Positions 15,589 to 46,703 of a stretch of DNA of 64,000 nt are shown here, piece after piece. Made by a program: the position numbers and the translations under genes. The number at the start of each line of letters is the position of its first letter. Within the stretch, counting starts at the first letter, position 1. This stretch comes from Escherichia phage vB_Eco4M-7: sequence record MN176217, one strand, 5' to 3'. Under the pieces are notes generated by a model, which did no database searches, had not been told where the DNA came from, and saw only the letters and a program-made list of their open reading frames with translations.

Positions 15589-17049
15589 ATGAATAAAATA
15601 TTAACACATAATTGGAAATTCATGTACCAGTTGAATCCTGCTTTAAAAGAAGTCTGGAAGACAAAAGCGCGATACAAAGTAATATACGGCGGTCGTGCAT
15701 CTTCCAAATCGCACGATGCCGCTGGTTTTGCTATTTATTTGGCGGCAAACTTCAAATTAAAATTCCTTTGCGTTCGACAATTCCAGAACAAGATTTCTGA
15801 ATCTGTATATACTCTATTAAAAGACAAAATAGAGATTTCTGATTTCAAAGATGAGTTCAATTTATTAAAGAACTCTATTGAACATAAAAGAACTAAATCT
15901 GAATTTCTATTTTACGGTATCGCACGTAACGTTGATGAAATTAAATCAACAGAAGGTGTTGACGTCCTTTGGTTGGAAGAAGCGCACGCGCTTACTGAAG
16001 AACAGTGGGACATTATTGAGCCGACAATCCGTAAAGAAGGGTCCGAAATATGGATCATCTTTAACCCTGATGAAGAGGCCGATTTCGTCTACCAAAACTT
16101 TGTTATGCGACCGCCGAAGAATGCCATTGTTAAAAAGATAAACTGGCAAGATAATCCATTCTTGTCGCAAACAATGCTGGACGTTATCGCAGGTATGTAC
16201 GAGCGTGACCCGAAAAAGGCAGAGCACGTTTATGGCGGTGTGCCGAAGACTGGCGGCGACAAATCTGTAATCAACCGCGCATTCGTTAAGGCCGCGCTAA
16301 ATCTCCACAAACACCCTATGCTGGGGTGGAGTTTGTCAGGGTCTAACCGTATAGGCTTTGACGTAGCGGACGATGGCGACGACCTTAACGCCACTGCATT
16401 CGTCACAGGAAACGTATTGCGCGGCATCAAGACGTGGGAAGGTCTGGAAGATGAATTGTTGAAATCGGCAAGCGGAGTTTGGAAAGATGCGCTTACATTT
16501 GGCGCTTCTATAACTTATGACGCCATCGGTGTCGGCGCTTTTGCTGGTTCAAAATTTGATGAACTGAACGAGTATGCAATACATGAAAATCCATCATTTC
16601 CAAGAATCGAATTTAATGCGTTCAATGCGCAAGGGTCTGTTGATGATCCTGATGACGTTTTTCTTGAATTACCACACGTTGAAATACTCAATAAAGACCA
16701 TTTCGCAAACATAAAAGCGCAAAAGTGGACTGAAATTGCAGAGAGATTCAGAAAGACATACGAATATGCAACTGGGCAAGCCGTATATCCGACTGATGAA
16801 TTGATTTCAATCGACACCGATGGTATACCGGAACTTGGGATTCCAGCTTGGACCACTGAAGAGATTGAGACGTTTCTTTTTGAGATGTCAGCGCCGCGCA
16901 AAGATACGTCTGTTCTTGGCAAGTTCAAAGTTGAATCCAAAAAGGATATGGCAAAGCGTGGAGTTAAATCACCTAACAAAGCGGACGCAGCAATCATGGC
17001 ATTGATGAAACCAATCGTTGCAGCATCCGGCTTCTTCTCTAACCTTTAA
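15589..17049 (+). CDS. terL: terminase large subunit
   Basis: 486 aa; Walker A YGGRASSKSH near N-terminus; start may be ATG 15622 because a TATAAT box abuts 15589. Confidence 0.8.
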   Translation: MNKILTHNWKFMYQLNPALKEVWKTKARYKVIYGGRASSKSHDAAGFAIYLAANFKLKFLCVRQFQNKISESVYTLLKDKIEISDFKDEFNLLKNSIEHKRTKSEFLFYGIARNVDEIKSTEGVDVLWLEEAHALTEEQWDIIEPTIRKEGSEIWIIFNPDEEADFVYQNFVMRPPKNAIVKKINWQDNPFLSQTMLDVIAGMYERDPKKAEHVYGGVPKTGGDKSVINRAFVKAALNLHKHPMLGWSLSGSNRIGFDVADDGDDLNATAFVTGNVLRGIKTWEGLEDELLKSASGVWKDALTFGASITYDAIGVGAFAGSKFDELNEYAIHENPSFPRIEFNAFNAQGSVDDPDDVFLELPHVEILNKDHFANIKAQKWTEIAERFRKTYEYATGQAVYPTDELISIDTDGIPELGIPAWTTEEIETFLFEMSAPRKDTSVLGKFKVESKKDMAKRGVKSPNKADAAIMALMKPIVAASGFFSNL

Positions 17050-17052
17050 CAA

Positions 17053-17292
17053 TCAAAGCATTCCGTGCTGAAGGTCGAGTTTTCTTGCAGCAAATGACCT
17101 GGCACGGAATCGCTTACCAGCTCTTACTGCTTGCCGAATCTTCTTTTGCATACACTTACGGTCAAAATCGTTGCGGTCAACGGCTTCGAGTAAATCCCGA
17201 CGCAAAGCACCTAGTGTCGACTTTTCGGATACTTCTATGCCCAGCGCGGCTGCAACATCTTTCAAAACATCGAGTTCGGTTAACGTTCTCAT
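17053..17292 (-). CDS. hypothetical protein
   Basis: ORF track 79 aa; opposite strand between terminase and portal. Confidence 0.45.
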   Translation of the reverse strand: MRTLTELDVLKDVAAALGIEVSEKSTLGALRRDLLEAVDRNDFDRKCMQKKIRQAVRAGKRFRARSFAARKLDLQHGML

Positions 17293-17705
17293 TTGATAAT
17301 CCCCTTGATGTCTGATTCTGCCATAAAGATTGGAGTGCCGCTGCCAGGAACAATAGAGCGCGTTACTTTGTCGAACATATCGTTCTCTTCAACTTGAATA
17401 CGATAAAATTTATTTTTGGATGAAGATGGGCACAATCCAATAAATTTACCAATGCCGCGAACGCATTCATCTTCAAAGTATACTGTTTCACCTTGAATGG
17501 ATTCGATGTTTTCAACCGGATACACCTTGCGACCTAAAAGCCATTCATCCATGGTCGCCTGCAACACGTTTCGCGCATCCAAAATCCAAGGGTCAACTGT
17601 GGCACCTTCATATCGCGCAGCAGTGGCTTTTGCCAGCTCTTCATATTCGCACACATTTACTACTTCGCCTTGATGAAGGACGACAAATACAATTGTTGTG
17701 CTCAT
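17289..17705 (-). CDS. hypothetical protein
   Basis: ORF track 138 aa; 4-nt overlap with downstream gene. Confidence 0.5.
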   Translation of the reverse strand: MSTTIVFVVLHQGEVVNVCEYEELAKATAARYEGATVDPWILDARNVLQATMDEWLLGRKVYPVENIESIQGETVYFEDECVRGIGKFIGLCPSSSKNKFYRIQVEENDMFDKVTRSIVPGSGTPIFMAESDIKGIIK

Positions 17706-17829: not shown

Positions 17830-17867
17830 ATAGATTGATTCCCTTTCACTGTCAGGTGGCGTTAACA

Positions 17868-20243
17868 ATGAAAATTCTTGGCATAAAACTCTGGGAGAAG
17901 ACGCAACCAGAAGCCGAACCAGCGGAGATGCCGCCAGGCGACCCATTGGCACCGTTTGAACGCCTTGAAAGGCGCGGCAGCGGTCAACGCTGGGAAAAGA
18001 CTGAAAGCAATCGACCGACCTTTAAAACGGTTGATGACTTCCCTTTATATGAGCCTGATATCAACGGGGACGGTGTTGCAATCATCAAAGGTCGCTCAGT
18101 AGATTCAGCAACCGTATCCAAAAAAGTTATGGATAATGCCTTAAAGAACATCAGTTCAGAAGGGCAGGTGAATCCATACACAGTGCCTATTCAGCTGCAA
18201 AACTGGTACTTATCGCAATCATTTATCGGATATCAAGCTTGCGCCATCATCGCGCAGCACTGGCTGGTGAACAAGGCTTGTTCCATGGTAGGTCGCGATG
18301 CGGTCCGTAAAGGCTGGGAAGTAAAATCCAGCTCTGAGTCGGAATTGTCAGTACAGGCCAGCGAACGCCTAAAGCAAATTGATAAAGAATTTAATATCAA
18401 AGAGCACTTAGTTGAAGCCGAACGATTCAAGAATATTTTTGGCATTCGCGTCATCATATTTGACGTGCGCAGCGATGACCCAGAATATTATAGCAAACCT
18501 TTTAACATCGATGGTGTGACAAAAGGGTCTTATAAGGGAATCATTCAGGTTGACCCTTATTGGATGATGCCATTCTTGACGTCTGAAAACACTGCGGACC
18601 CTGCATCACAGCATTTCTATGATCCAGAATATTGGGTGATCAGCGGACAACGTTATCACCGCAGCCACCTCATCATCTTGCGCAACGATGAGCCAGCTGA
18701 TATTCTCAAGCCGACTTATATCTATGGCGGCATTCCTCTGACTCAGCAGATTTATGAACGTATCTATGCCGCTGAACGTACCGCTAACGAAGCGCCATTG
18801 CTGGCGATGTCTAAGCGTACAACCACGCTGCGGACCGACGTTGACAAGGCGATTGCCAATGAGCGGTCGTTTGCCGAACGTTTGATGATGTGGATTAAGT
18901 ACCGCGACAACTATGCGGTAAAAGTGCTTGGTCAGAAAGAAGAGATGGACCAGTTTGACATCAACTTGTCAGACTTCGACAGCATCATCATGAACCAGTA
19001 CCAGCTGGTGGCCGCAATCGCAAAAGTTCCGTCGACAAAACTGTTAGGGACGTCACCTAAAGGCTTTAACGCCACTGGTGAGTTCGAAATGGTCAGCTAT
19101 CACGAAGAATTGGAGACTTGTCAGCAGCACGATTTGACGAAGATTCTTGACCGTCACTATAAAATCCTTTTGAAATCTGAAGGTGTTGAAGTCGACGTTA
19201 AAGTGGCATGGGAGCCAGTTGGTTCACTTACTGCTACTCAGCTTGCAGAGATTAACGACAAACGAGCGAATACTGGTAAGACTCTCATTGATGCTGGCGT
19301 CATCTCCCCTGATGAAGAGCGCGACCGCATCAAGGACGACAAAAACAGCGGCTACAACCGTTTGCCAGAAGATACAGCAGAAGAAACCCCAGGGATGTCT
19401 CCAGAGAATATGGCATTGCTTGGCAAGTCTGCTGGTGAAGTTCTGCAAGGCAAAGCCGATATTGAACAGGCCAAAGCTGATGTCGTCAAGATGAGCGGCC
19501 AGTTCTATAGTAAGACTGGTATCATGCCGGAAGGTGCCGCGCGCGGTGAGTTGGCAGAAAACCCTGACAGGGCACCAGTTGAGATTAACATGGATGATAC
19601 CGATGACGAATCAAGCCATCAGGTTGATGTCCTAACGCAACTGAAAGAAGGTCTGGAGGGTATTGCTGACTATTACCTTAAAGAAGGTCAGGATGTGGAT
19701 TTTGACCCTCAAAAAGACGCAAGGTCTGTGCAGCCGTCTACCCTTCCAAGCGTAAAAGGAAATGTGGTGAATTTACGCCACAACGTAGGGAAGATGGATG
19801 CCGCATCGCTGCCTAAGATGAAGTTGCATGGAATGATTCTTGGAATCGAGAATCCTCGCAACAGCATTCGCAGGGGTAACAGCCTTGATGGTGAATGGGC
19901 AGTTAAGATGCCGCACCATTACGGATTCATCAAAGGAACCAAGGGCGCTGATGGTGATGAAGTCGACTGCTTTGTTGGACCAAATATGAAGTCGCCTAAA
20001 GTATTCATCATTAACCAAAATGATAATTATTCTGGCGAATTTGATGAACACAAGTGTATGCTTGGATTCGATTCAGCAGAAGAAGCGAAAGAAGCATATC
20101 AGGCATCATTTGGTAACGGTTGGAATGGATTCGACTCAATCCACGAATTGGATGTAGACTCATTCAAGGAGTGGTTGAAGGGTGATTGCTCTCAAGCATA
20201 TGGAGCACTCAATAATCCTACTAATTCACCGAAGCAAGGTTGA
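17868..20243 (+). CDS. portal protein with acidic linker and C-terminal inorganic pyrophosphatase-like domain
   Basis: Position after terminase, ~790 aa; C-terminal YGFIKGTKGADGDEVDCFVG ... DSAEEAKEAYQASF parallels family I PPase YGYI..T...DGDPVDVLV ... ENAEAAKAEIVASF. Confidence 0.6.
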   Translation: MKILGIKLWEKTQPEAEPAEMPPGDPLAPFERLERRGSGQRWEKTESNRPTFKTVDDFPLYEPDINGDGVAIIKGRSVDSATVSKKVMDNALKNISSEGQVNPYTVPIQLQNWYLSQSFIGYQACAIIAQHWLVNKACSMVGRDAVRKGWEVKSSSESELSVQASERLKQIDKEFNIKEHLVEAERFKNIFGIRVIIFDVRSDDPEYYSKPFNIDGVTKGSYKGIIQVDPYWMMPFLTSENTADPASQHFYDPEYWVISGQRYHRSHLIILRNDEPADILKPTYIYGGIPLTQQIYERIYAAERTANEAPLLAMSKRTTTLRTDVDKAIANERSFAERLMMWIKYRDNYAVKVLGQKEEMDQFDINLSDFDSIIMNQYQLVAAIAKVPSTKLLGTSPKGFNATGEFEMVSYHEELETCQQHDLTKILDRHYKILLKSEGVEVDVKVAWEPVGSLTATQLAEINDKRANTGKTLIDAGVISPDEERDRIKDDKNSGYNRLPEDTAEETPGMSPENMALLGKSAGEVLQGKADIEQAKADVVKMSGQFYSKTGIMPEGAARGELAENPDRAPVEINMDDTDDESSHQVDVLTQLKEGLEGIADYYLKEGQDVDFDPQKDARSVQPSTLPSVKGNVVNLRHNVGKMDAASLPKMKLHGMILGIENPRNSIRRGNSLDGEWAVKMPHHYGFIKGTKGADGDEVDCFVGPNMKSPKVFIINQNDNYSGEFDEHKCMLGFDSAEEAKEAYQASFGNGWNGFDSIHELDVDSFKEWLKGDCSQAYGALNNPTNSPKQG

Positions 20244-20244
20244 T

Positions 20245-21096
20245 ATGGCTTTTAAAGCTTCGAAAAAACGTGAACGCCGCTCACCCGATAGAATCGGGCG
20301 CGGCAGTCCGATAATCCCATCCAACGCTATTGCGATGGCCTATCGTCGTGAGATGAAAGGTCTTTGCTATACGATGATTGACGACTATCAAGCAGGAATT
20401 GCTGAGTGGCTTGAAAAGAAGCAGGTGAAAAAGTTCTTTGCGCAAGACTCTGCTGATTCAACTTTTCAAACCTTGATGAAGCGACTGCAACTGAAATGGG
20501 CAAAAGCCTTCGCCCGTGTCGGGTCAAAGATTGCCGCAGATTTCATCAAGTCAGTTGAAAAGGGCGCCACTTCTGCTACATTTGCAAGTCTTAAATCTGC
20601 AGGAATAGAAGCGCCAAAAGCCACATATAATAAATTCGTTGAGAACACTCTTAAAACAAGCGAGACGTTCAACACGACTTTAGTGACTAAGGTTGGCGAA
20701 GATATTCACAACAGGGTGTACGAAGCGGTGATGCTTTCGCTGACTTCGCCAGACCCAGCACAACAAGGCACGTCAGGCATTCAGGCGGCATTAAGAAATG
20801 TAAAACACTTCTCTGCAAAACGCGTAGACCTTATCGCTAAAGACCAAACAAGCAAACTTTATTGCGTATTAAGTGATGAAAGGATGCGACAGAATGGCGT
20901 TGAGGAATTTGAGTGGGCGCATTCAGGAGCAGGCAAAGAGCCGCGAATATCACATGAGCACGTCGACGGCATGAGATTCAAGCTTGATGACAAACGCTTA
21001 TGGGAAGTAGGTGGAGAACTTAAGTTCAAAAAGGGTGACATCGGTCCTCCTGGATGGGCGATACACTGCAAGTGCAGAAAAATACCAATTATCTGA
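20245..21096 (+). CDS. head morphogenesis protein (Mu F / SPP1 gp7-like)
   Basis: Position after portal; C-terminal HVDGMRF...HCKCRK motif typical of the family. Confidence 0.6.
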   Translation: MAFKASKKRERRSPDRIGRGSPIIPSNAIAMAYRREMKGLCYTMIDDYQAGIAEWLEKKQVKKFFAQDSADSTFQTLMKRLQLKWAKAFARVGSKIAADFIKSVEKGATSATFASLKSAGIEAPKATYNKFVENTLKTSETFNTTLVTKVGEDIHNRVYEAVMLSLTSPDPAQQGTSGIQAALRNVKHFSAKRVDLIAKDQTSKLYCVLSDERMRQNGVEEFEWAHSGAGKEPRISHEHVDGMRFKLDDKRLWEVGGELKFKKGDIGPPGWAIHCKCRKIPII

Positions 21097-21103
21097 GGTC
21101 ATT

Positions 21104-22024
21104 ATGACGATACCAATCAACACATTCCCTCTATCTGGACAAACTCCAGTCTTGCCTGCGGTGTATGCTAATGGCTTGGCGATTGTCTCAGAATTCACAT
21201 CAGATAAAAACCTGATTGTTCCATTGAGTCCGCCGCTTGCATCAGGGTATAACTCAGTAGGTCAATTCTTTATGATTGGCAATGATGGCGATTCGACCAG
21301 TAAGCCTAATCTGACATTGTCTGTACCTAAGATGGACATCACAGACGTTCAAACTGGCTTGACTGCATCAACAATCACCATTGCTTTTGGAGAAGCGGTG
21401 ATTATAGGAATGGAGTCTGGAGGGTCCAAGAATGCTGTCGCCGTTAAGGTAGTCAAATCCAGCGACAACCAATACACGTTACCAGCTGCGACGGATTCCG
21501 TTCTCGGCGGCGTCAAAATAGGAAGCGGAATAAGCGTCGCAGGTGATGGTACAATTAGCGTCACTCAATACTCATTGCCGATTGCGTCAGCATCTACTTT
21601 AGGCGGCGTAAAGGTCGGTACAACTCTATCAATTGATGGTTCCGGTGTGCTTAACGCAGCGGAAAGCACCGTCCAGAATGCCACGAACAGTGTTAGCAAT
21701 CCTCCAACCACTTTGGTTAATCTGGCAACCTTAAACCTTCCTGCAGGAAAGTGGCTTGTGACGGCAAGTCAGTTGACTGTCGCGACAGCAGGAATTCAAG
21801 CGAACACCGGAATTACAGCCAAATTGTCAACAAGCGATTCAGATATTACGGATGATGCATTTACGATGTCAGCGGGCATTCGGGCTGCAGGTCGTTTTGG
21901 CGGCAACATCCCGACAAAAATAATCACTCTTGCCGCGCCTGGTGATGTATATCTAAACTATCAGTGCACCGATGCATTGACATCTACCGTTCACGGACAG
22001 ATCACCGCAATTAAGCTGAACTAA
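21104..22024 (+). CDS. virion fibre-like protein with repeated ...LGGVK(I/V)G...S(I/V).G(D/S)G... motifs
   Basis: ORF track frame 21011..22024 trimmed to ATG after GAGGT; tandem fibre-repeat-like motifs. Confidence 0.45.
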   Translation: MTIPINTFPLSGQTPVLPAVYANGLAIVSEFTSDKNLIVPLSPPLASGYNSVGQFFMIGNDGDSTSKPNLTLSVPKMDITDVQTGLTASTITIAFGEAVIIGMESGGSKNAVAVKVVKSSDNQYTLPAATDSVLGGVKIGSGISVAGDGTISVTQYSLPIASASTLGGVKVGTTLSIDGSGVLNAAESTVQNATNSVSNPPTTLVNLATLNLPAGKWLVTASQLTVATAGIQANTGITAKLSTSDSDITDDAFTMSAGIRAAGRFGGNIPTKIITLAAPGDVYLNYQCTDALTSTVHGQITAIKLN

Positions 22025-22587: not shown

Positions 22588-24006
22588 ATGCGAATGCAAA
22601 CGGCACGCGAAATTGACAAAAATGGATTCTTGACGATTATGGGTTGTCCAATTTCGTCATTTGGCATTTTTGATTATTCTGCTGGTCAAGTTGGTCTTGA
22701 TGGTGATCCGAATCGCATCGTAAAAGTCTATCGCCCTGAGTCAGCGGTGAAAGACCCCGAAGCGATAGATTCATTCAAAAATATCCCTTTCATCGACAAT
22801 CACGAAATGCTTTCTGGATTTGAAGGTGATGAGGATAACACAGCACCCGAAGAGTATGGAGTTGATGGCGTTCTGACTGGCAATGTTTATTATGACAAGC
22901 CATGGATGCGCGGCGACCTTAAAGTGTTTAGCCGTCGTCTGAAGAAGGCCATTGATTCTGGAAAGGTTGACTTGTCTTTGGGCTATGACTGTGAATTCAT
23001 CATACAGTCTGGAGAGTTTGACGGGCAGCCGTATGAAGTGGTGCAGACAACTCTTCGCGGCAACCACATTGCTCTCGTGGACGTTGGTCGAGTACCAGGT
23101 GCACGGGTGCTGGATGGTCGTTGCTTTGACCATCTTTGTTTGACGACTGTAACACCATCCAACGAGGATTTAGACATGCCAAAACCGTTAAAAGGTAAAG
23201 CGCGTGATAATGCTGTTGAACAGCTGAAATCACTGATCCCTGCGCTCGAACAATTTCTGAATGAAGAGAGTACTGAAGCTGCTCATCAGGACGAAGTTGA
23301 AGTGAAAGCAGAAGAGAAGGACTCAACCGAAAATCGTGAAGAAGTAATGGTTGATCCAGAAGTCAAGGCAGAAGCAGAAGAAACCCCAGAAGGTGAAGAG
23401 AAGTTTGAAGTTGAAACTGAATCTAACGCTGGCGGCGAACTTCCGCAATTGATCAGCCAAATCGAAGCACTTATTGCAAAACTGAAAGGTGGCGCGGTAG
23501 GTGATGAAGAAGAAGTTGAAGCCGAAGTCAAAGACGAAGAAGTTGAAGTCAAGGCTGAAGATGTATCACCTTGCGACAAAGCTGAAGATGTGGTTAGCGG
23601 CCTGCAAAACAGCAACGTAAAGGGGGCTTCGGTCGAAAAAGATGACAAACCGACAAAAGCGGCGAAAGCGTCGCCAGGTCCAGCAAAAGGGGAACACTCA
23701 ATGGCATCTGATTCAGCAGTTGCTGCTTTCTACGCTGATTCTGCTCGTAAGAATAGCCTCTACCAGCGCCTGTCTAAAGTTGTTGGTGCCTTTGATCATG
23801 CAACTATGGACTCCAAGTCCGTAGCGAAATATGGCGCTAAAAAGTTAGGCTTGAAGTGCGTTGATGGTGCTGAGTTTGACGTGGTGGATAATTATCTACG
23901 CGGCGTTGAGCACGGTCAAAAACAGCGTGTAGTCGCAAAACAAAAGGCCGCTGCGGATTCTGCAGCAACTGACGAAGCATTTGAAGCTTGGTTGAAAGGG
24001 GAATAA
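22588..24006 (+). CDS. putative prohead scaffolding protein (possibly with N-terminal protease-like domain)
   Basis: 472 aa; long acidic E/K/V-rich central region; position between MuF-like and capsid genes. Confidence 0.45.
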   Translation: MRMQTAREIDKNGFLTIMGCPISSFGIFDYSAGQVGLDGDPNRIVKVYRPESAVKDPEAIDSFKNIPFIDNHEMLSGFEGDEDNTAPEEYGVDGVLTGNVYYDKPWMRGDLKVFSRRLKKAIDSGKVDLSLGYDCEFIIQSGEFDGQPYEVVQTTLRGNHIALVDVGRVPGARVLDGRCFDHLCLTTVTPSNEDLDMPKPLKGKARDNAVEQLKSLIPALEQFLNEESTEAAHQDEVEVKAEEKDSTENREEVMVDPEVKAEAEETPEGEEKFEVETESNAGGELPQLISQIEALIAKLKGGAVGDEEEVEAEVKDEEVEVKAEDVSPCDKAEDVVSGLQNSNVKGASVEKDDKPTKAAKASPGPAKGEHSMASDSAVAAFYADSARKNSLYQRLSKVVGAFDHATMDSKSVAKYGAKKLGLKCVDGAEFDVVDNYLRGVEHGQKQRVVAKQKAAADSAATDEAFEAWLKGE

Positions 24007-46079: not shown

Positions 46080-46703
46080 TTATTGTCCTGTAACTTCTCT
46101 GATCACACGGTCTTCAAGTTCCAGCTTCTTTACCATTTTGCAGGAGTGCTCATAAGCTGGATCAGTAGATTTGATGAACGTTCCGTTGTACATGACACCT
46201 TTGCGGTCCTTGATGTCTTCGTAGGCCGCTTGCGCACAGTCGGATAAGCGAAGGCCATAATCATGAGCTACGCCGGAAAGGTAATCGACTGCGGCCATGA
46301 TGGTGACGTCAATATCCATGGTCTGATTCTTAGCAATAGCATCACCAAGCCGTCCAAGGGTCTTTGCCAGGCGAAGGATGAATGAATGAGGGTGAGCGCC
46401 TTTATCAGCACAACCGCCGCCATTAATGTTTTCGATTTCAGTACCGTTTTGCGCCGCCAGGATGGTCAACACAACAAGACAATCGCCAATGTCGTCCTTG
46501 ATTGCAGCTTGCAAGTCACAGATGGCCTGCTCTGTATATCCAATTTCAGGGTCGAAGAACACAAGGTCATGGAGTTGATCAACGTGGTCGGTTAACTCCC
46601 CAAACTCGCTGATAAGCTTCGGGTATTGGTCCTTAAGGTCGCAACCTTGGATGATGTTACGGTCAGAAGCCCACTGGCGAATGTTTGCATAAATCTGTTT
46701 CAT
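46080..46703 (-). CDS. MazG-like nucleotide pyrophosphohydrolase (all-alpha NTP-PPase)
   Basis: 207 aa; EFGELTDHVD and acidic helices. Confidence 0.45.
   Translation of the reverse strand: MKQIYANIRQWASDRNIIQGCDLKDQYPKLISEFGELTDHVDQLHDLVFFDPEIGYTEQAICDLQAAIKDDIGDCLVVLTILAAQNGTEIENINGGGCADKGAHPHSFILRLAKTLGRLGDAIAKNQTMDIDVTIMAAVDYLSGVAHDYGLRLSDCAQAAYEDIKDRKGVMYNGTFIKSTDPAYEHSCKMVKKLELEDRVIREVTGQ

What the first reader, a model, noticed from the sequence alone, without database searches (positions are those of the whole stretch)
19790..20243. Inorganic-pyrophosphatase-like domain fused to the portal C-terminus
After a ~500 aa portal-like region and a ~150 aa acidic linker, the last ~130 aa read HHYGFIKGTKGADGDEVDCFVG ... 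NDNYSGEFDEHKCMLGF ... DSAEEAKEAYQASF. This mirrors E. coli PPase YGYINHTLSLDGDPVDVLV ... DEAGEDAKLVAV ... ENAEAAKAEIVASF, including the D-[SGDN]-D-[PE]-[LIVMF]-D-[LIVMGAC] signature (recalled from memory). One continuous ORF, so a PPase-like module would be carried on the portal, at the DNA-packaging vertex.
Basis: partly seen in the sequence, partly recalled or inferred. Interest (0 to 1): 0.7.

Follow-up and report, generated by a model that had tools for sequence, protein, structure and literature searches.

The report
Pyrophosphatase-like domain on phage portal
The portal protein of this E. coli phage does end in a divergent pyrophosphatase-like enzyme domain that is packed inside the virus head, but this domain family and this same fusion were described in related phages in 2017, and what it does is still untested.

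Summary
The window is Escherichia phage vB_Eco4M-7(n), genus Wifcevirus. One ORF (true start ATG 17868, stop 20243, 791 aa) encodes four parts:
- a PF06381 portal core;
- a C-terminal barrel helix;
- an acidic linker of about 105 aa;
- a 123-aa domain that matches Pfam PF18823 "InPase" at E 3e-46.

Published virion mass spectrometry of this phage and of ECML-117 contains InPase-domain peptides, so the domain is in the particle preparations. The cryo-EM structures of the orthologous E217 and Pa193 portals show no density after residue 528.

The domain is under strong purifying selection (dN/dS about 0.02).

None of this is new in kind. Iyer et al. 2017 defined the InPase domain and named the orthologous BcepF1 portal fusion. 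About 470 phage genomes carry the domain.

My best reading is a capsid-internal cargo hydrolase that acts at the next infection. The substrate and the release step are unproven.

Interest is modest.

The parts
17854..17859 (+). Shine-Dalgarno AGGTGG, 8 nt upstream of the true start codon ATG 17868
   Evidence: Read directly from the sequence. The start agrees with the published annotation of vB_Eco4M-7_36 and with the annotations in SP13, WFC and ECML-117.
17868..20243 (+). Portal-InPase fusion gene (vB_Eco4M-7_36), 791 aa plus stop
   Evidence: The ORF is. It is 100% identical to PP596836. PHROG 4660 matches over the full length with E = 0. It is an ortholog of the solved portals Pa193 gp19 (E 1e-250) and E217 gp19.
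18231..19271 (+). Portal core domain (residues 133-479 of the 802-aa numbering)
   Evidence: Pfam PF06381 Phage_portal_3, E 4.5e-88. It is 64-65% identical to the Pa193 and BcepF1 cores.
19395..19487 (+). Predicted C-terminal barrel helix (about residues 521-551), which projects into the capsid lumen
   Evidence: Gap-free homology to Pa193 residues 498-528, the last part modelled in PDB 9b41. That part forms a barrel of about 30 residues. In E217 it projects into the head. The segment starts with the conserved motif TPGMSPEN.
19488..19811 (+). Acidic linker with low between-genus conservation (about residues 552-659)
   Evidence: The wider segment 501-659 has pI 4.38. The linker region as delimited (791-aa residues 521-648, overlapping the barrel helix) is 19-27% identical to Pa193 and BcepF1, and the spacer keeps its length (146-156 aa) and acidity there. 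dN/dS is 0.01-0.05 within Wifcevirus. The equivalent Pa193 and E217 residues give no cryo-EM density.
19812..20180 (+). InPase domain (residues 660-782), a divergent family I PPase fold
19950..19970 (+). DGDEVDC metal-binding and catalytic motif (D706, D708, D711, equivalent to E. coli D65, D67, D70)
   Evidence: Regex hit, unique in the window. hhalign gives the register. Conservation across 156 domains is D 153/156, D/E 154/156 and D 156/156. The peptide GADGDEVDcFVGPNMK was seen in virion MS.
20181..20243 (+). Poorly conserved C-terminal tail (residues 783-802) and stop codon
   Evidence: pLDDT is below 50 for the last residues. It is 15-35% identical to orthologs. The peptide GDcSQAYGALNNPTNSPK shows that the extreme C-terminus is present in virions.
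15589..17049 (+). Context: terminase large subunit
   Evidence: PF04466, E 3e-37.
20245..21096 (+). Context: MuF-like minor capsid / head morphogenesis protein, starting immediately after the portal stop codon
   Evidence: PF04233, E 4e-07. The same gene order is seen in Pa193, BcepF1 and the metagenomic fragment L009.
22594..24006 (+). Context: head maturation protease (DUF2213), the candidate enzyme if the portal tail is processed
   Evidence: PF09979, E 5e-35, and PHROG 3778 'head maturation protease', E 2.5e-172. It was detected in virions with 28 peptides.

Best explanation
The gene encodes the phage portal protein with an accessory enzyme module added at its C-terminus.

**What is shown**
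- The module is a member of the InPase family (PF18823), a shortened, divergent branch of the family I inorganic-pyrophosphatase fold.
- It keeps the residues that in E. coli PPase bind the two catalytic Mg2+ ions (D65, D70 and D102, here D706, D711 and E738).
- It also keeps the general base (D67, here D708), E20 (E672), Y55 (Y696), K104 (K740) and a basic residue at the K29 position (R679).
- It is present in purified-virion preparations of this phage and of ECML-117.
- It is as conserved as the portal core and is under strong purifying selection.

**What is inferred from the ortholog structures**
- The portal C-terminal barrel points into the head. The twelve copies of the linker plus InPase therefore lie inside the capsid lumen, flexible and invisible to symmetric cryo-EM averaging.

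**What is inferred, not shown, about function**
- The portal acts as an incorporation anchor that guarantees a fixed dose of 12 enzyme copies per particle.
- The enzyme acts at the very start of the next infection, before any phage gene is expressed.
- It would be a Mg2+-dependent phosphoanhydride hydrolase. Its substrate would be either PPi, which would pull PPi-releasing early reactions such as polymerisation or ligase adenylylation, or a nucleotide-derived pyrophosphate compound made by the host.
- To reach the cytoplasm it would have to be cut from the portal, plausibly by the DUF2213 head protease. A tether of about 160 residues spans at most about 55 nm. The tail is about 130 nm long in Pa193.
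For: **Domain identity.** PF18823 at E 3e-46. PHROG hits to the same domain lie inside giant proteins, including a 'DarB-like antirestriction' family.

**Active site.** hhalign gives the register. E672, R679, Y696, D706, D708, D711, D737, E738 and K740 are near-invariant across 156 diverse domains, and all are present here.

**Virion presence.** Twenty peptides of gp36 span residues 23-800, and 439 of 559 PSMs fall in the InPase domain. This is replicated in ECML-117.

**Lumenal, flexible position.** The Pa193 and E217 portals are modelled only to residue 528. The barrel projects into the head, and residues 529-765 have no density.

**Selection.** The InPase domain is 58-63% identical across Escherichia, Pseudomonas and Burkholderia phages, against 64-65% for the core and 19-27% for the linker. 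Its dN/dS is 0.017-0.029.

**Accessory cargo.**
- Outgroup portals with 44-51% identical cores are 466-491 aa and have no tail.
- The BCSR129 portal (55% core identity) has an acidic tail but no InPase.
- An unrelated portal family (PF04860) has independently acquired the same domain, in P0188.
- Most of the 12,217 family clusters sampled are giant multidomain proteins.

**Protease.** A head maturation protease is encoded 2.3 kb downstream and is found in virions.

**Prior proposal.** Iyer et al. 2017 made the same prediction for the ortholog BcepF1.124.
Against: - No enzymatic activity has been measured for any InPase domain in the literature I could search.
- Several PPi-binding residues of classical PPases have no demonstrable counterpart. 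E31 is replaced by an invariant Gly. The positions aligned with R43 and D97 are variable. Y141 and K142 could not be mapped. The substrate may therefore not be PPi.
- There is no evidence of release. Fully tryptic peptides cover nearly the whole linker in the two MS datasets. Any maturation cleavage would have to fall in residues 541-552, 628-630 or 649-663, or be partial, or not exist.
- A tethered domain cannot reach the host.
- The MS was run on whole-particle digests without gel separation, and the preparations also contained some non-structural proteins such as a helicase. Contamination therefore cannot be ruled out formally.
- E. coli already has an abundant, very active PPase (general knowledge), so extra PPi hydrolysis seems redundant.
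Confidence: 0.55

Rival explanations
1. Permanently tethered lumenal element with a structural or physical role. The twelve linker-InPase tails would stay on the portal and act inside the head. They might organise or anchor the DNA end through Mg2+/phosphate binding, fill the space around the barrel, or take part in headful sensing or genome retention. Turnover of a soluble substrate would not be the function.
For: - The domain and the whole linker are found in virions as fully tryptic peptides, with no sign of cleavage.
- The linker is under purifying selection within the genus and has no indels in the five genomes compared. Its length and acidity are kept across genera.
- The barrel contacts DNA and unfolds after ejection in E217.
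- The tether is too short to deliver the domain through the tail (geometry).
Against: - The residues conserved across 156 domains are the catalytic and metal-binding set of an enzyme. They are kept in very different architectures, including standalone genes and giant polyvalent proteins, where no portal or DNA-end role applies.
- The close relative BCSR129 has the tail but no InPase, and outgroup portals lack both. The domain is therefore not needed for this portal type to work.
Confidence: 0.17
2. Enzyme acting in the producer cell. The domain would work late in infection, on free portal subunits or in procapsids. It would be a true PPase that pulls PPi-releasing reactions such as DNA synthesis, ligase adenylylation or nucleotide-modification pathways. 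Its presence in virions would be incidental.
For: - Standalone InPase genes occur in metabolic contexts. One example is a phage cluster with QueC, an Asn-synthase-like amidotransferase, radical SAM, methyltransferase and glycosyltransferase genes (L003).
- Other InPase proteins are fused to an ATP-dependent DNA ligase and LigD 3'-phosphoesterase (P0043), or to 2H, LigD_N and acylphosphatase domains (P0116).
- This phage encodes its own ATP-dependent ligase and a gene annotated as a MazG-like pyrophosphohydrolase. Both would release PPi.
- Wifceviruses are reported to replicate unusually fast.
Against: - This reading gives no reason to fuse the enzyme to the one protein present at only 12 copies per head, or to place it on the lumenal side.
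- Independent fusions to two portal families, and the family's prevalence in proteins predicted to be virion-packaged, point to packaging as the selected feature.
- Host PPase is abundant (general knowledge).
Confidence: 0.15
3. Packaging helper at the portal vertex. A classical PPase would sit at the DNA-packaging motor and assist genome packaging.
For: The domain is physically part of the portal, which is where the terminase docks.
Against: - Terminase ATPases release ADP and Pi, not PPi (established biochemistry).
- The portal C-terminus faces the capsid interior, opposite the terminase.
- The domain fails the classical PPase profile.
- Related portals package DNA without it.
Confidence: 0.04
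4. Annotation or assembly artefact. Two genes would have been fused by a frameshift error, or the motif match would be a chance hit.
For: None was found.
Against: - All 28 Wifcevirus records cover the full ORF region. Pa193 and BcepF1 carry continuous full-length portal-InPase ORFs, and about 300 Pbunavirus records carry both the domain and the portal core.
- The five Wifcevirus genes compared are all 2373 nt with no stops.
- Peptides come from every region of the protein.
- The profile E-value is 3e-46.
Confidence: 0.01

Closest known systems
Portal-InPase fusion proteins of the Pbunavirus / Bcepfunavirus group: BcepF1.124 (YP_001039808), E217 gp19 (PDB 8fvh) and Pa193 gp19 (PDB 9b41)
   Same: These are orthologs with the same four-part architecture: PF06381 core, barrel, acidic linker of about 150 aa, and InPase. 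The core is 64-65% identical and the InPase 58-63%. Gene order is the same, TerL ... portal-MuF. Iyer et al. 2017 named BcepF1.124 explicitly as a portal-InPase fusion and suggested that it is injected.
   Different: The host is different (E. coli / Shigella) and the linker sequence has diverged to 19-27% identity. For this phage and ECML-117 there is peptide-level evidence that the domain is in virions. The E217 and Pa193 structure papers do not mention the domain, and they report no density after residue 528.
InPase domains (Pfam PF18823) of phage polyvalent proteins (Iyer, Burroughs, Anand, de Souza & Aravind 2017)
   Same: This is the same domain family (157 bits) with the same invariant residues. 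It occurs mostly in phage proteins that are predicted, and in a few cases shown, to be packed in the head.
   Different: Here the domain is the only cargo, and it sits on the portal itself. It is not one of many domains in a 2,000-6,000-aa protein. There is no zincin-like protease domain in the polypeptide to release it.
Family I soluble inorganic pyrophosphatase (E. coli Ppa; Pfam PF00719)
   Same: - The DxDxxD signature is present.
- Counterparts of E20, K29 (as Arg), Y55, D65, D67, D70, D102 (as Glu) and K104 are present.
   Different: - It is about 50 residues shorter.
- It is below the PF00719 and NCBIfam cut-offs.
- E31 is replaced by an invariant Gly.
- No demonstrable counterparts exist for R43, D97, Y141 and K142.
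- It is tethered to a dodecameric ring rather than forming a free hexamer.
- Its activity and substrate are untested.
Capsid-packaged, injected effector proteins: T4 Alt and internal proteins, P1 Dar proteins, and effectors fused to MuF
   Same: The logic is the same. An enzyme is loaded into the head through an assembly anchor so that it is available before phage gene expression begins (for Alt, MuF and DdrB as reviewed there).
   Different: Those cargoes are free proteins, or are released by proteolysis from a targeting sequence. For the portal-InPase neither release nor injection has been shown. From memory, not checked here: the phage Mu portal gpH loses a C-terminal piece during head maturation, which would be a precedent for trimming a portal tail.

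Membership tests
InPase domain family (Pfam PF18823) | Profile HMM match above the curated gathering score | tested here: met
   157-161 bits against a cut-off of 26.8, E 3e-46, covering profile positions 12-135 of 135.
InPase domain family (Pfam PF18823) | [quoted passage not shown] | tested here: met
   E672, D706, D708, D711, D737 and E738, together with R679, Y696, K740, Y755 and K778, are all present. Each is conserved in at least 143 of 156 diverse family members, except D708, which is D in 136 and E in 18. Position 759 is F here, Y in 136 and F in 14.
InPase domain family (Pfam PF18823) | Lacks the beta-hairpin insert between the first two core strands that all solved PPases have (Iyer et al. 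2017) | tested here: inconclusive
   The domain is about 50 residues shorter than E. coli PPase, and hhalign needs several gaps in the 23-54 region of E. coli. The AF2 model still shows a hairpin at domain residues 28-41. I had no model coordinates, so I could not tell which element is missing.
Family I soluble inorganic pyrophosphatase (PF00719 / PROSITE PS00387) | Profile HMM match above the gathering score | tested here: not met
   PF00719 scores 18.2 bits (whole protein) and 21.0 bits (C-terminal piece) against a cut-off of 23.5, and only profile positions 32-57 align. NCBIfam PRK02230 scores 17.8 bits against 246.
Family I soluble inorganic pyrophosphatase (PF00719 / PROSITE PS00387) | Signature D-[SGDN]-D-[PE]-[LIVMF]-D-[LIVMGAC] (pattern taken from memory, as in the finding) | tested here: met
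   DGDEVDC at residues 706-712 is the only hit in the six-frame translation of the window.
Family I soluble inorganic pyrophosphatase (PF00719 / PROSITE PS00387) | OB-like beta-barrel PPase fold | tested here: met
   [not shown]
Family I soluble inorganic pyrophosphatase (PF00719 / PROSITE PS00387) | Complete active site: E20, K29, E31, R43, Y55, D65, D67, D70, D97, D102, K104, Y141, K142 (E. coli numbering, from established literature) | tested here: inconclusive
   Eight positions map to conserved counterparts: E20, K29 (as R), Y55, D65, D67, D70, D102 (as E) and K104. E31 is lost and replaced by an invariant G. The positions aligned with R43 and D97 are variable in the family. Y141 and K142 could not be placed because the C-terminal half of the hhalign alignment has no confidence.
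Family I soluble inorganic pyrophosphatase (PF00719 / PROSITE PS00387) | Mg2+-dependent hydrolysis of PPi | not testable with these tools
   I found no biochemical data for any InPase domain.
Phage portal protein (PF06381, E217/Pa193 gp19 type) | Portal profile match and orthology to structurally solved portals | tested here: met
   PF06381 at E 4.5e-88. Pa193 gp19 matches at E 1e-250 over residues 25-790, and E217 gp19 at E 3.7e-189.
Phage portal protein (PF06381, E217/Pa193 gp19 type) | Dodecamer at the unique capsid vertex | not testable with these tools
   This has been shown for the orthologs by cryo-EM. For this phage, only presence in virions has been shown.
Polyvalent / injected early effector proteins (Iyer et al. 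2017) | Packaged in the virion | tested here: met
   Published virion MS of vB_Eco4M-7 and ECML-117 contains 7 and 6 distinct InPase-domain peptide sequences respectively. The caveat is that these were whole-particle digests, and purity was not independently verified.
Polyvalent / injected early effector proteins (Iyer et al. 2017) | Delivered into the host cell with the DNA | not testable with these tools
   No data exist. Geometry argues that delivery would need cleavage from the portal, and the MS data neither show nor exclude such cleavage.

The most novel reading that the evidence does not exclude
The portal-borne InPase may not be a housekeeping-type PPase. It could be an immediate-early counter-defence enzyme. 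It would be cut from the portal by the head protease, ejected with the DNA, and would destroy a pyrophosphate-containing host immune molecule before any phage gene is expressed. Candidate targets are an alarmone or (p)ppApp-type toxin product, 3'-pyrophosphorylated tRNA, or an ADP-ribose-derived signal. [quoted passage not shown]

Four observations are compatible with this reading:
- the altered leaving-group side of the active site;
- the NUDIX gene coupled to MuF in the one close relative whose portal lacks InPase;
- the family's association with NUDIX noted in 2017;
- the sensitivity of Wifcevirus to resident E. coli K-12 immunity.
Probability: 0.15. Interest if true: 0.75.

Novelty: already known. 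Interest (0 to 1): 0.3.

Why it matters
The bioinformatic fact is already established. The domain is a Pfam family (PF18823). The orthologous BcepF1 portal fusion was described in 2017. UniProt and at least one GenBank record already use the name "inorganic pyrophosphatase". The finding itself therefore changes nothing.

The open question is experimental: what is a conserved, strongly selected hydrolase doing inside the capsid, tethered to the portal, in roughly 300 Pbunavirus genomes and all Wifceviruses? [quoted passage not shown]

The high-resolution virion structures of E217 and Pa193 do not resolve the last 237 residues of the portal, and their papers do not mention the domain. Reanalysis of the published MS data shows the domain is retained in particles. 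The question is now directly testable with BASEL phages Bas98-101 on E. coli K-12 derivatives.

An answer would bear on how phages deliver proteins without a dedicated ejection-protein gene, and possibly on early counter-defence.

Tried and rejected
1. **Classical PPase membership.** PF00719 and NCBIfam PRK02230 are both below cut-off, so I do not file the domain as a canonical family I PPase.

2. **Full-length residue mapping to E. coli PPase.**
   - hhalign with a 156-sequence InPase profile is reliable only for E. coli residues 15-97.
   - The global mode drops to 18% probability.
   - The PPase profile was shallow because the homolog search returned only sequences at least 82% identical.
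   - The tools return no model coordinates, so no structure-based residue alignment was possible.

3. **Natural split versions, with portal and InPase as separate genes.** The closest short homologs, P0001 and P0004, start at contig ends, and P0004 is followed by MuF. They are truncated fusions and not evidence of fission.

4. **Internal translation start giving free InPase.** ATG 19794 (M654) has only a poorly spaced AGGG upstream, and the Met is absent in Pa193. Rejected.

5. **Head-gene context for standalone InPases.** Three long contigs gave baseplate, DNA-modification and unknown contexts, not portal neighbourhoods.

6. **Evidence for or against proteolytic processing.** The Pa193 supplementary LC-MS tables are not held. 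The PB1-like virion proteome paper by Ceyssens et al. 2009 is not held. The Necel et al. data come from whole-particle digests searched with full tryptic specificity, so they only narrow the possible cleavage windows.

7. **Defence-system homology.** There were no PADLOC hits.

8. **Literature on function.** 'InPase' occurs in only one relevant paper. Searches combining pyrophosphatase, portal and phage terms found no functional study.

9. **Second structure prediction (linker plus domain).** I did not run it. The allowed alignment covers only the InPase domain, so low linker confidence would have been uninformative.
Full report
**What the window is.** The 2,409-nt region is 100% identical to Escherichia phage vB_Eco4M-7n. 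It is 91-97% identical to 27 other Wifcevirus genomes that infect E. coli or Shigella. The published gene table for vB_Eco4M-7 uses the same coordinates as the window, with gene 36 ("portal protein", DUF1073) at 17868..20243.

**Checking the observation.**
- The ORF listing gives one ORF, 17835..20243 (+), of 802 aa from a TTG.
- The real start is ATG 17868, 8 nt after an AGGTGG Shine-Dalgarno, giving 791 aa. I number residues from the TTG; subtract 11 for the annotated protein.
Its E. coli strings are real, because my recalled E. coli PPase sequence is 100% identical to PDB 1faj/1ino.
- The PROSITE-style motif hits once, DGDEVDC at 706-712. That is the only hit in all six frames of the window.
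- Segment 501-659 is acidic, with pI 4.38.

**Profile evidence.**
- Pfam gives Phage_portal_3 (PF06381) at residues 133-479, E 4.5e-88.
- Pfam gives "InPase" (PF18823) at residues 660-782, E 3.2e-46, with 157 bits against a cut-off of 26.8.
- The classical PPase family PF00719 reaches only 18-21 bits against a cut-off of 23.5, and only over the motif region.
- NCBIfam's PPase equivalog is likewise far below threshold.
- PHROG 4660 ("minor head protein") matches the whole length, so the architecture is itself a catalogued family.
- The C-terminal domain alone also hits PHROGs of 700-4,600-aa profiles, including a "DarB-like antirestriction" family.

**Fold.**
- AlphaFold2 on residues 651-802, with a 29-sequence alignment, gave pLDDT 89 and pTM 0.83. 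The model is a beta-barrel followed by a helix, a strand and a helix.
- Foldseek against the PDB returns only family I PPases at the top, with best E 1.7e-4 and TM about 0.45.
- Against predicted viral structures the best match is the Serratia phage MTx portal (TM 0.85). Several hits are named "Inorganic pyrophosphatase domain-containing protein".

**Active site.** hhalign of InPase profiles against E. coli PPase gives 91.6% probability. Across 156 diverse InPase domains taken from a 1.84-billion-protein search, conservation is as follows:

| E. coli PPase | This protein | Conservation in 156 domains |
|---|---|---|
| E20 | E672 | E 153 |
| K29 | R679 | R 154 |
| Y55 | Y696 | Y 156 |
| D65 | D706 | D 153 |
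| D67 | D708 | D 136, E 18 |
| D70 | D711 | D 156 |
| E101 | D737 | D 156 |
| D102 | E738 | E 156 |
| K104 | K740 | K 155 |

- The last three rows pair DEHK (737-740) with EDAK (101-104). I placed that register by eye, because hhalign is off by one there.
- Y755 (153), Y/F759 (150) and K778 (154 K/R) are also conserved, but I could not map them to E. coli residues.
- E31 is replaced by an invariant Gly.
- The positions aligned with R43 and D97 are variable in the family.
- Y141 and K142 could not be placed.
- The metal-binding and nucleophile side of a PPase site is therefore intact. The side that holds the leaving phosphate differs or is unresolved. This is what one expects of a hydrolase of phosphoanhydride bonds whose substrate need not be PPi.

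**Is the domain really made and kept?**
- Necel et al. 2020 (PMC7048862) ran LC-MS/MS on virions. For gp36 they list 20 peptides.
- I mapped them. They span residues 23-800. Of the 559 PSMs, 439 fall in the InPase domain, 50 in the linker, 30 in the core and 40 in the N-terminal region.
- The peptides include the catalytic motif itself (GADGDEVDcFVGPNMK) and the extreme C-terminus.
- The independent ECML-117 dataset in the same paper repeats this result.
- Together the two datasets cover almost the whole linker with fully tryptic peptides. The gaps are residues 541-552, 628-630 and 649-663. The domain is therefore in the particle preparations. Whether it is still covalently attached is not settled.

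**Where it sits.**
- The protein is an ortholog of the Pbunavirus portals solved by cryo-EM: Pa193 gp19 (PDB 9b41, E 1e-250) and E217 gp19 (8fvh).
- Both were modelled only to residue 528.
- The last ordered element is a C-terminal helical barrel of about 30 residues. It projects into the head around the DNA and unfolds after ejection.
- Pa193 residues 529-765 "had no discernable density". Neither paper mentions a pyrophosphatase domain (one search reports 0 occurrences).
- By gap-free homology the barrel here is about residues 521-551. About 105 disordered acidic residues and then the InPase domain follow, all on the lumenal side.

**Evolution.**

| Comparison | Core | Linker | InPase |
|---|---|---|---|
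| Identity to Pa193 / BcepF1 | 64 / 65% | 19 / 27% | 58 / 63% |
| dN/dS within Wifcevirus | 0.00-0.007 | 0.011-0.048 | 0.017-0.029 |

- The spacer keeps its length (146-156 aa) and its pI (4.3-4.6) across these genera.
- For the two most divergent pairs (against WFC and ECML-117), dS was 0.52 for the core, 0.74-1.21 for the linker and 0.64-0.71 for the InPase. None of the five genes has an indel.
- The domain occurs in 470 phage records: Pseudomonas 294, Vibrio 70, Escherichia 26, and others.
- It occurs in 12,217 clusters at 50% identity in the large library, many of them proteins of 2,000-6,000 aa.
- Portals with 44-51% identical cores (Bordetella IFTN3, a Plectonema phage) are 466-491 aa and have no tail.
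- The Burkholderia phage BCSR129 portal (55% core identity) has an acidic tail of about 200 aa but no InPase.
- A metagenomic protein joins a different portal family (PF04860) to InPase (P0188).
- The module is therefore an accessory cargo that portals have acquired more than once.

**Prior knowledge.**
- Iyer et al. 2017 (PMC5512222) defined the InPase domain as a monophyletic, hairpin-less branch of type I PPases. [quoted passage not shown] - They proposed either degradation of nucleotide-derived molecules or clearing of PPi to aid early replication or transcription. BcepF1.124 is the direct ortholog of this gene.
- A GenBank record (Luteibacter phage Pluto) already labels its ortholog "inorganic pyrophosphatase".
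- I found no experimental study of the domain.

**Mechanism.**
- I commit to the cargo model, in which the portal is the incorporation anchor and the enzyme acts at the next infection.
- Shown: domain identity, fold, a conserved catalytic core, presence in virion preparations, purifying selection, and accessory, repeatedly acquired status.
- Inferred from orthologs: the lumenal, flexible position and the twelve copies.
- Inferred only: catalytic activity, substrate, release and delivery.
- The tail of Pa193 is about 1,300 A long. About 160 residues of unfolded tether reach at most about 550 A. Delivery therefore requires cleavage.
- A DUF2213 head-maturation protease is encoded at 22594-24006 and is present in virions. 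No cleavage has been demonstrated.
- The main rivals are a permanently tethered structural or DNA-interacting role and a late, producer-cell metabolic role.
- The packaging-helper idea is disfavoured by topology and chemistry. The artefact reading is excluded.

**Verdict.** The observation and the core interpretation are correct, but the feature is already described in kind and in orthologs. Its residual interest lies in the unanswered functional question.

Noticed in passing
L014 2132-4213 and L018 976-1404 (Burkholderia phage BCSR129, MW460247.1): This is the one close relative whose portal (693 aa, 55% core identity) has an acidic tail but no InPase. It carries a bona fide NUDIX hydrolase gene (PF00293, E 3e-20) that overlaps the end of the MuF gene in the head module. 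This could be functional substitution of one pyrophosphate-bond hydrolase by another, but it is a single case.
   Followed up: partly
P0188 (742 aa, metagenomic representative): This is an independent fusion of InPase to a different portal family (PF04860 Phage_portal, residues 175-497; InPase 589-722). It shows that portal-InPase architectures arose more than once.
   Followed up: partly
L003 6001-6669 (Logan SRR29078280 contig, 70 kb): A standalone 222-aa InPase gene sits in a phage cluster with QueC, an Asn-synthase-like amidotransferase, radical SAM, methyltransferase, epimerase and glycosyltransferase genes. The cluster looks like a DNA or nucleotide hypermodification pathway of the 7-deazaguanine type, whose ATP-dependent steps release PPi.
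   Followed up: no
P0043 (767 aa), P0116 (821 aa), P0130 (1095 aa): In these proteins InPase is fused to nucleic-acid end-processing domains. P0043 has LigD 3'-phosphoesterase, an ATP-dependent DNA ligase and two InPase copies. P0116 and P0130 both have a 2H phosphoesterase; P0116 adds LigD_N and an acylphosphatase, and P0130 adds a SET domain. This hints at coupling to adenylylating, PPi-releasing enzymes.
   Followed up: no
window 17835-20243, virion MS of Necel et al. 2020: PSM counts are very uneven. 79% of the portal PSMs come from the 143-residue C-terminal domain, and only 5% from the 398-residue core, which has 21 theoretical tryptic peptides. The compact core may be digested poorly and the flexible tail well, or the stoichiometries may differ. 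I did not resolve this.
   Followed up: partly
window 19362-19811 (linker) and its orthologs: The linker has diverged between genera (19-27% identity). Within Wifcevirus it nonetheless has dN/dS of only 0.01-0.05 and no indels. It begins with a conserved TPG(M/A)SPEN motif and contains a conserved amphipathic helix-like stretch (about residues 595-616). It is more constrained than a passive spacer would be.
   Followed up: partly
window 17053-17705, minus strand: Two small genes (79 and 138 aa, hypothetical) lie on the opposite strand between the terminase large subunit and the portal, interrupting the packaging module. Pa193 has a comparable block of small minus-strand genes upstream of its portal (L005 142-1415).
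   Followed up: no
window 21104-22024 (+): Gene 38 encodes an abundant virion protein (73% MS coverage). It has a weak head-fiber match (PF11133, E 6e-07) and internally repeated '...LGGVK(I/V)G...' segments. It lies between the MuF and protease genes. The mechanical ORF list extends it to a GTG at 21011.
   Followed up: no
L010 2323-10377 (Achromobacter phage CF418P1): A 2,684-aa ORF annotated 'putative portal' contains InPase (835-971), LPD3 and LPD38, but has no Pfam portal match. The preceding 591-aa ORF has no Pfam match either. The portal annotation may be wrong, or the portal part may be very divergent.
   Followed up: partly
window 46080-46703, minus strand: This gene is annotated in the phage paper as a MazG-like nucleotide pyrophosphohydrolase, next to an ATP-dependent ligase. 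My Pfam scan of it found nothing at E <= 0.01. If the annotation is right, the phage encodes two PPi-producing enzymes of its own.
   Followed up: partly
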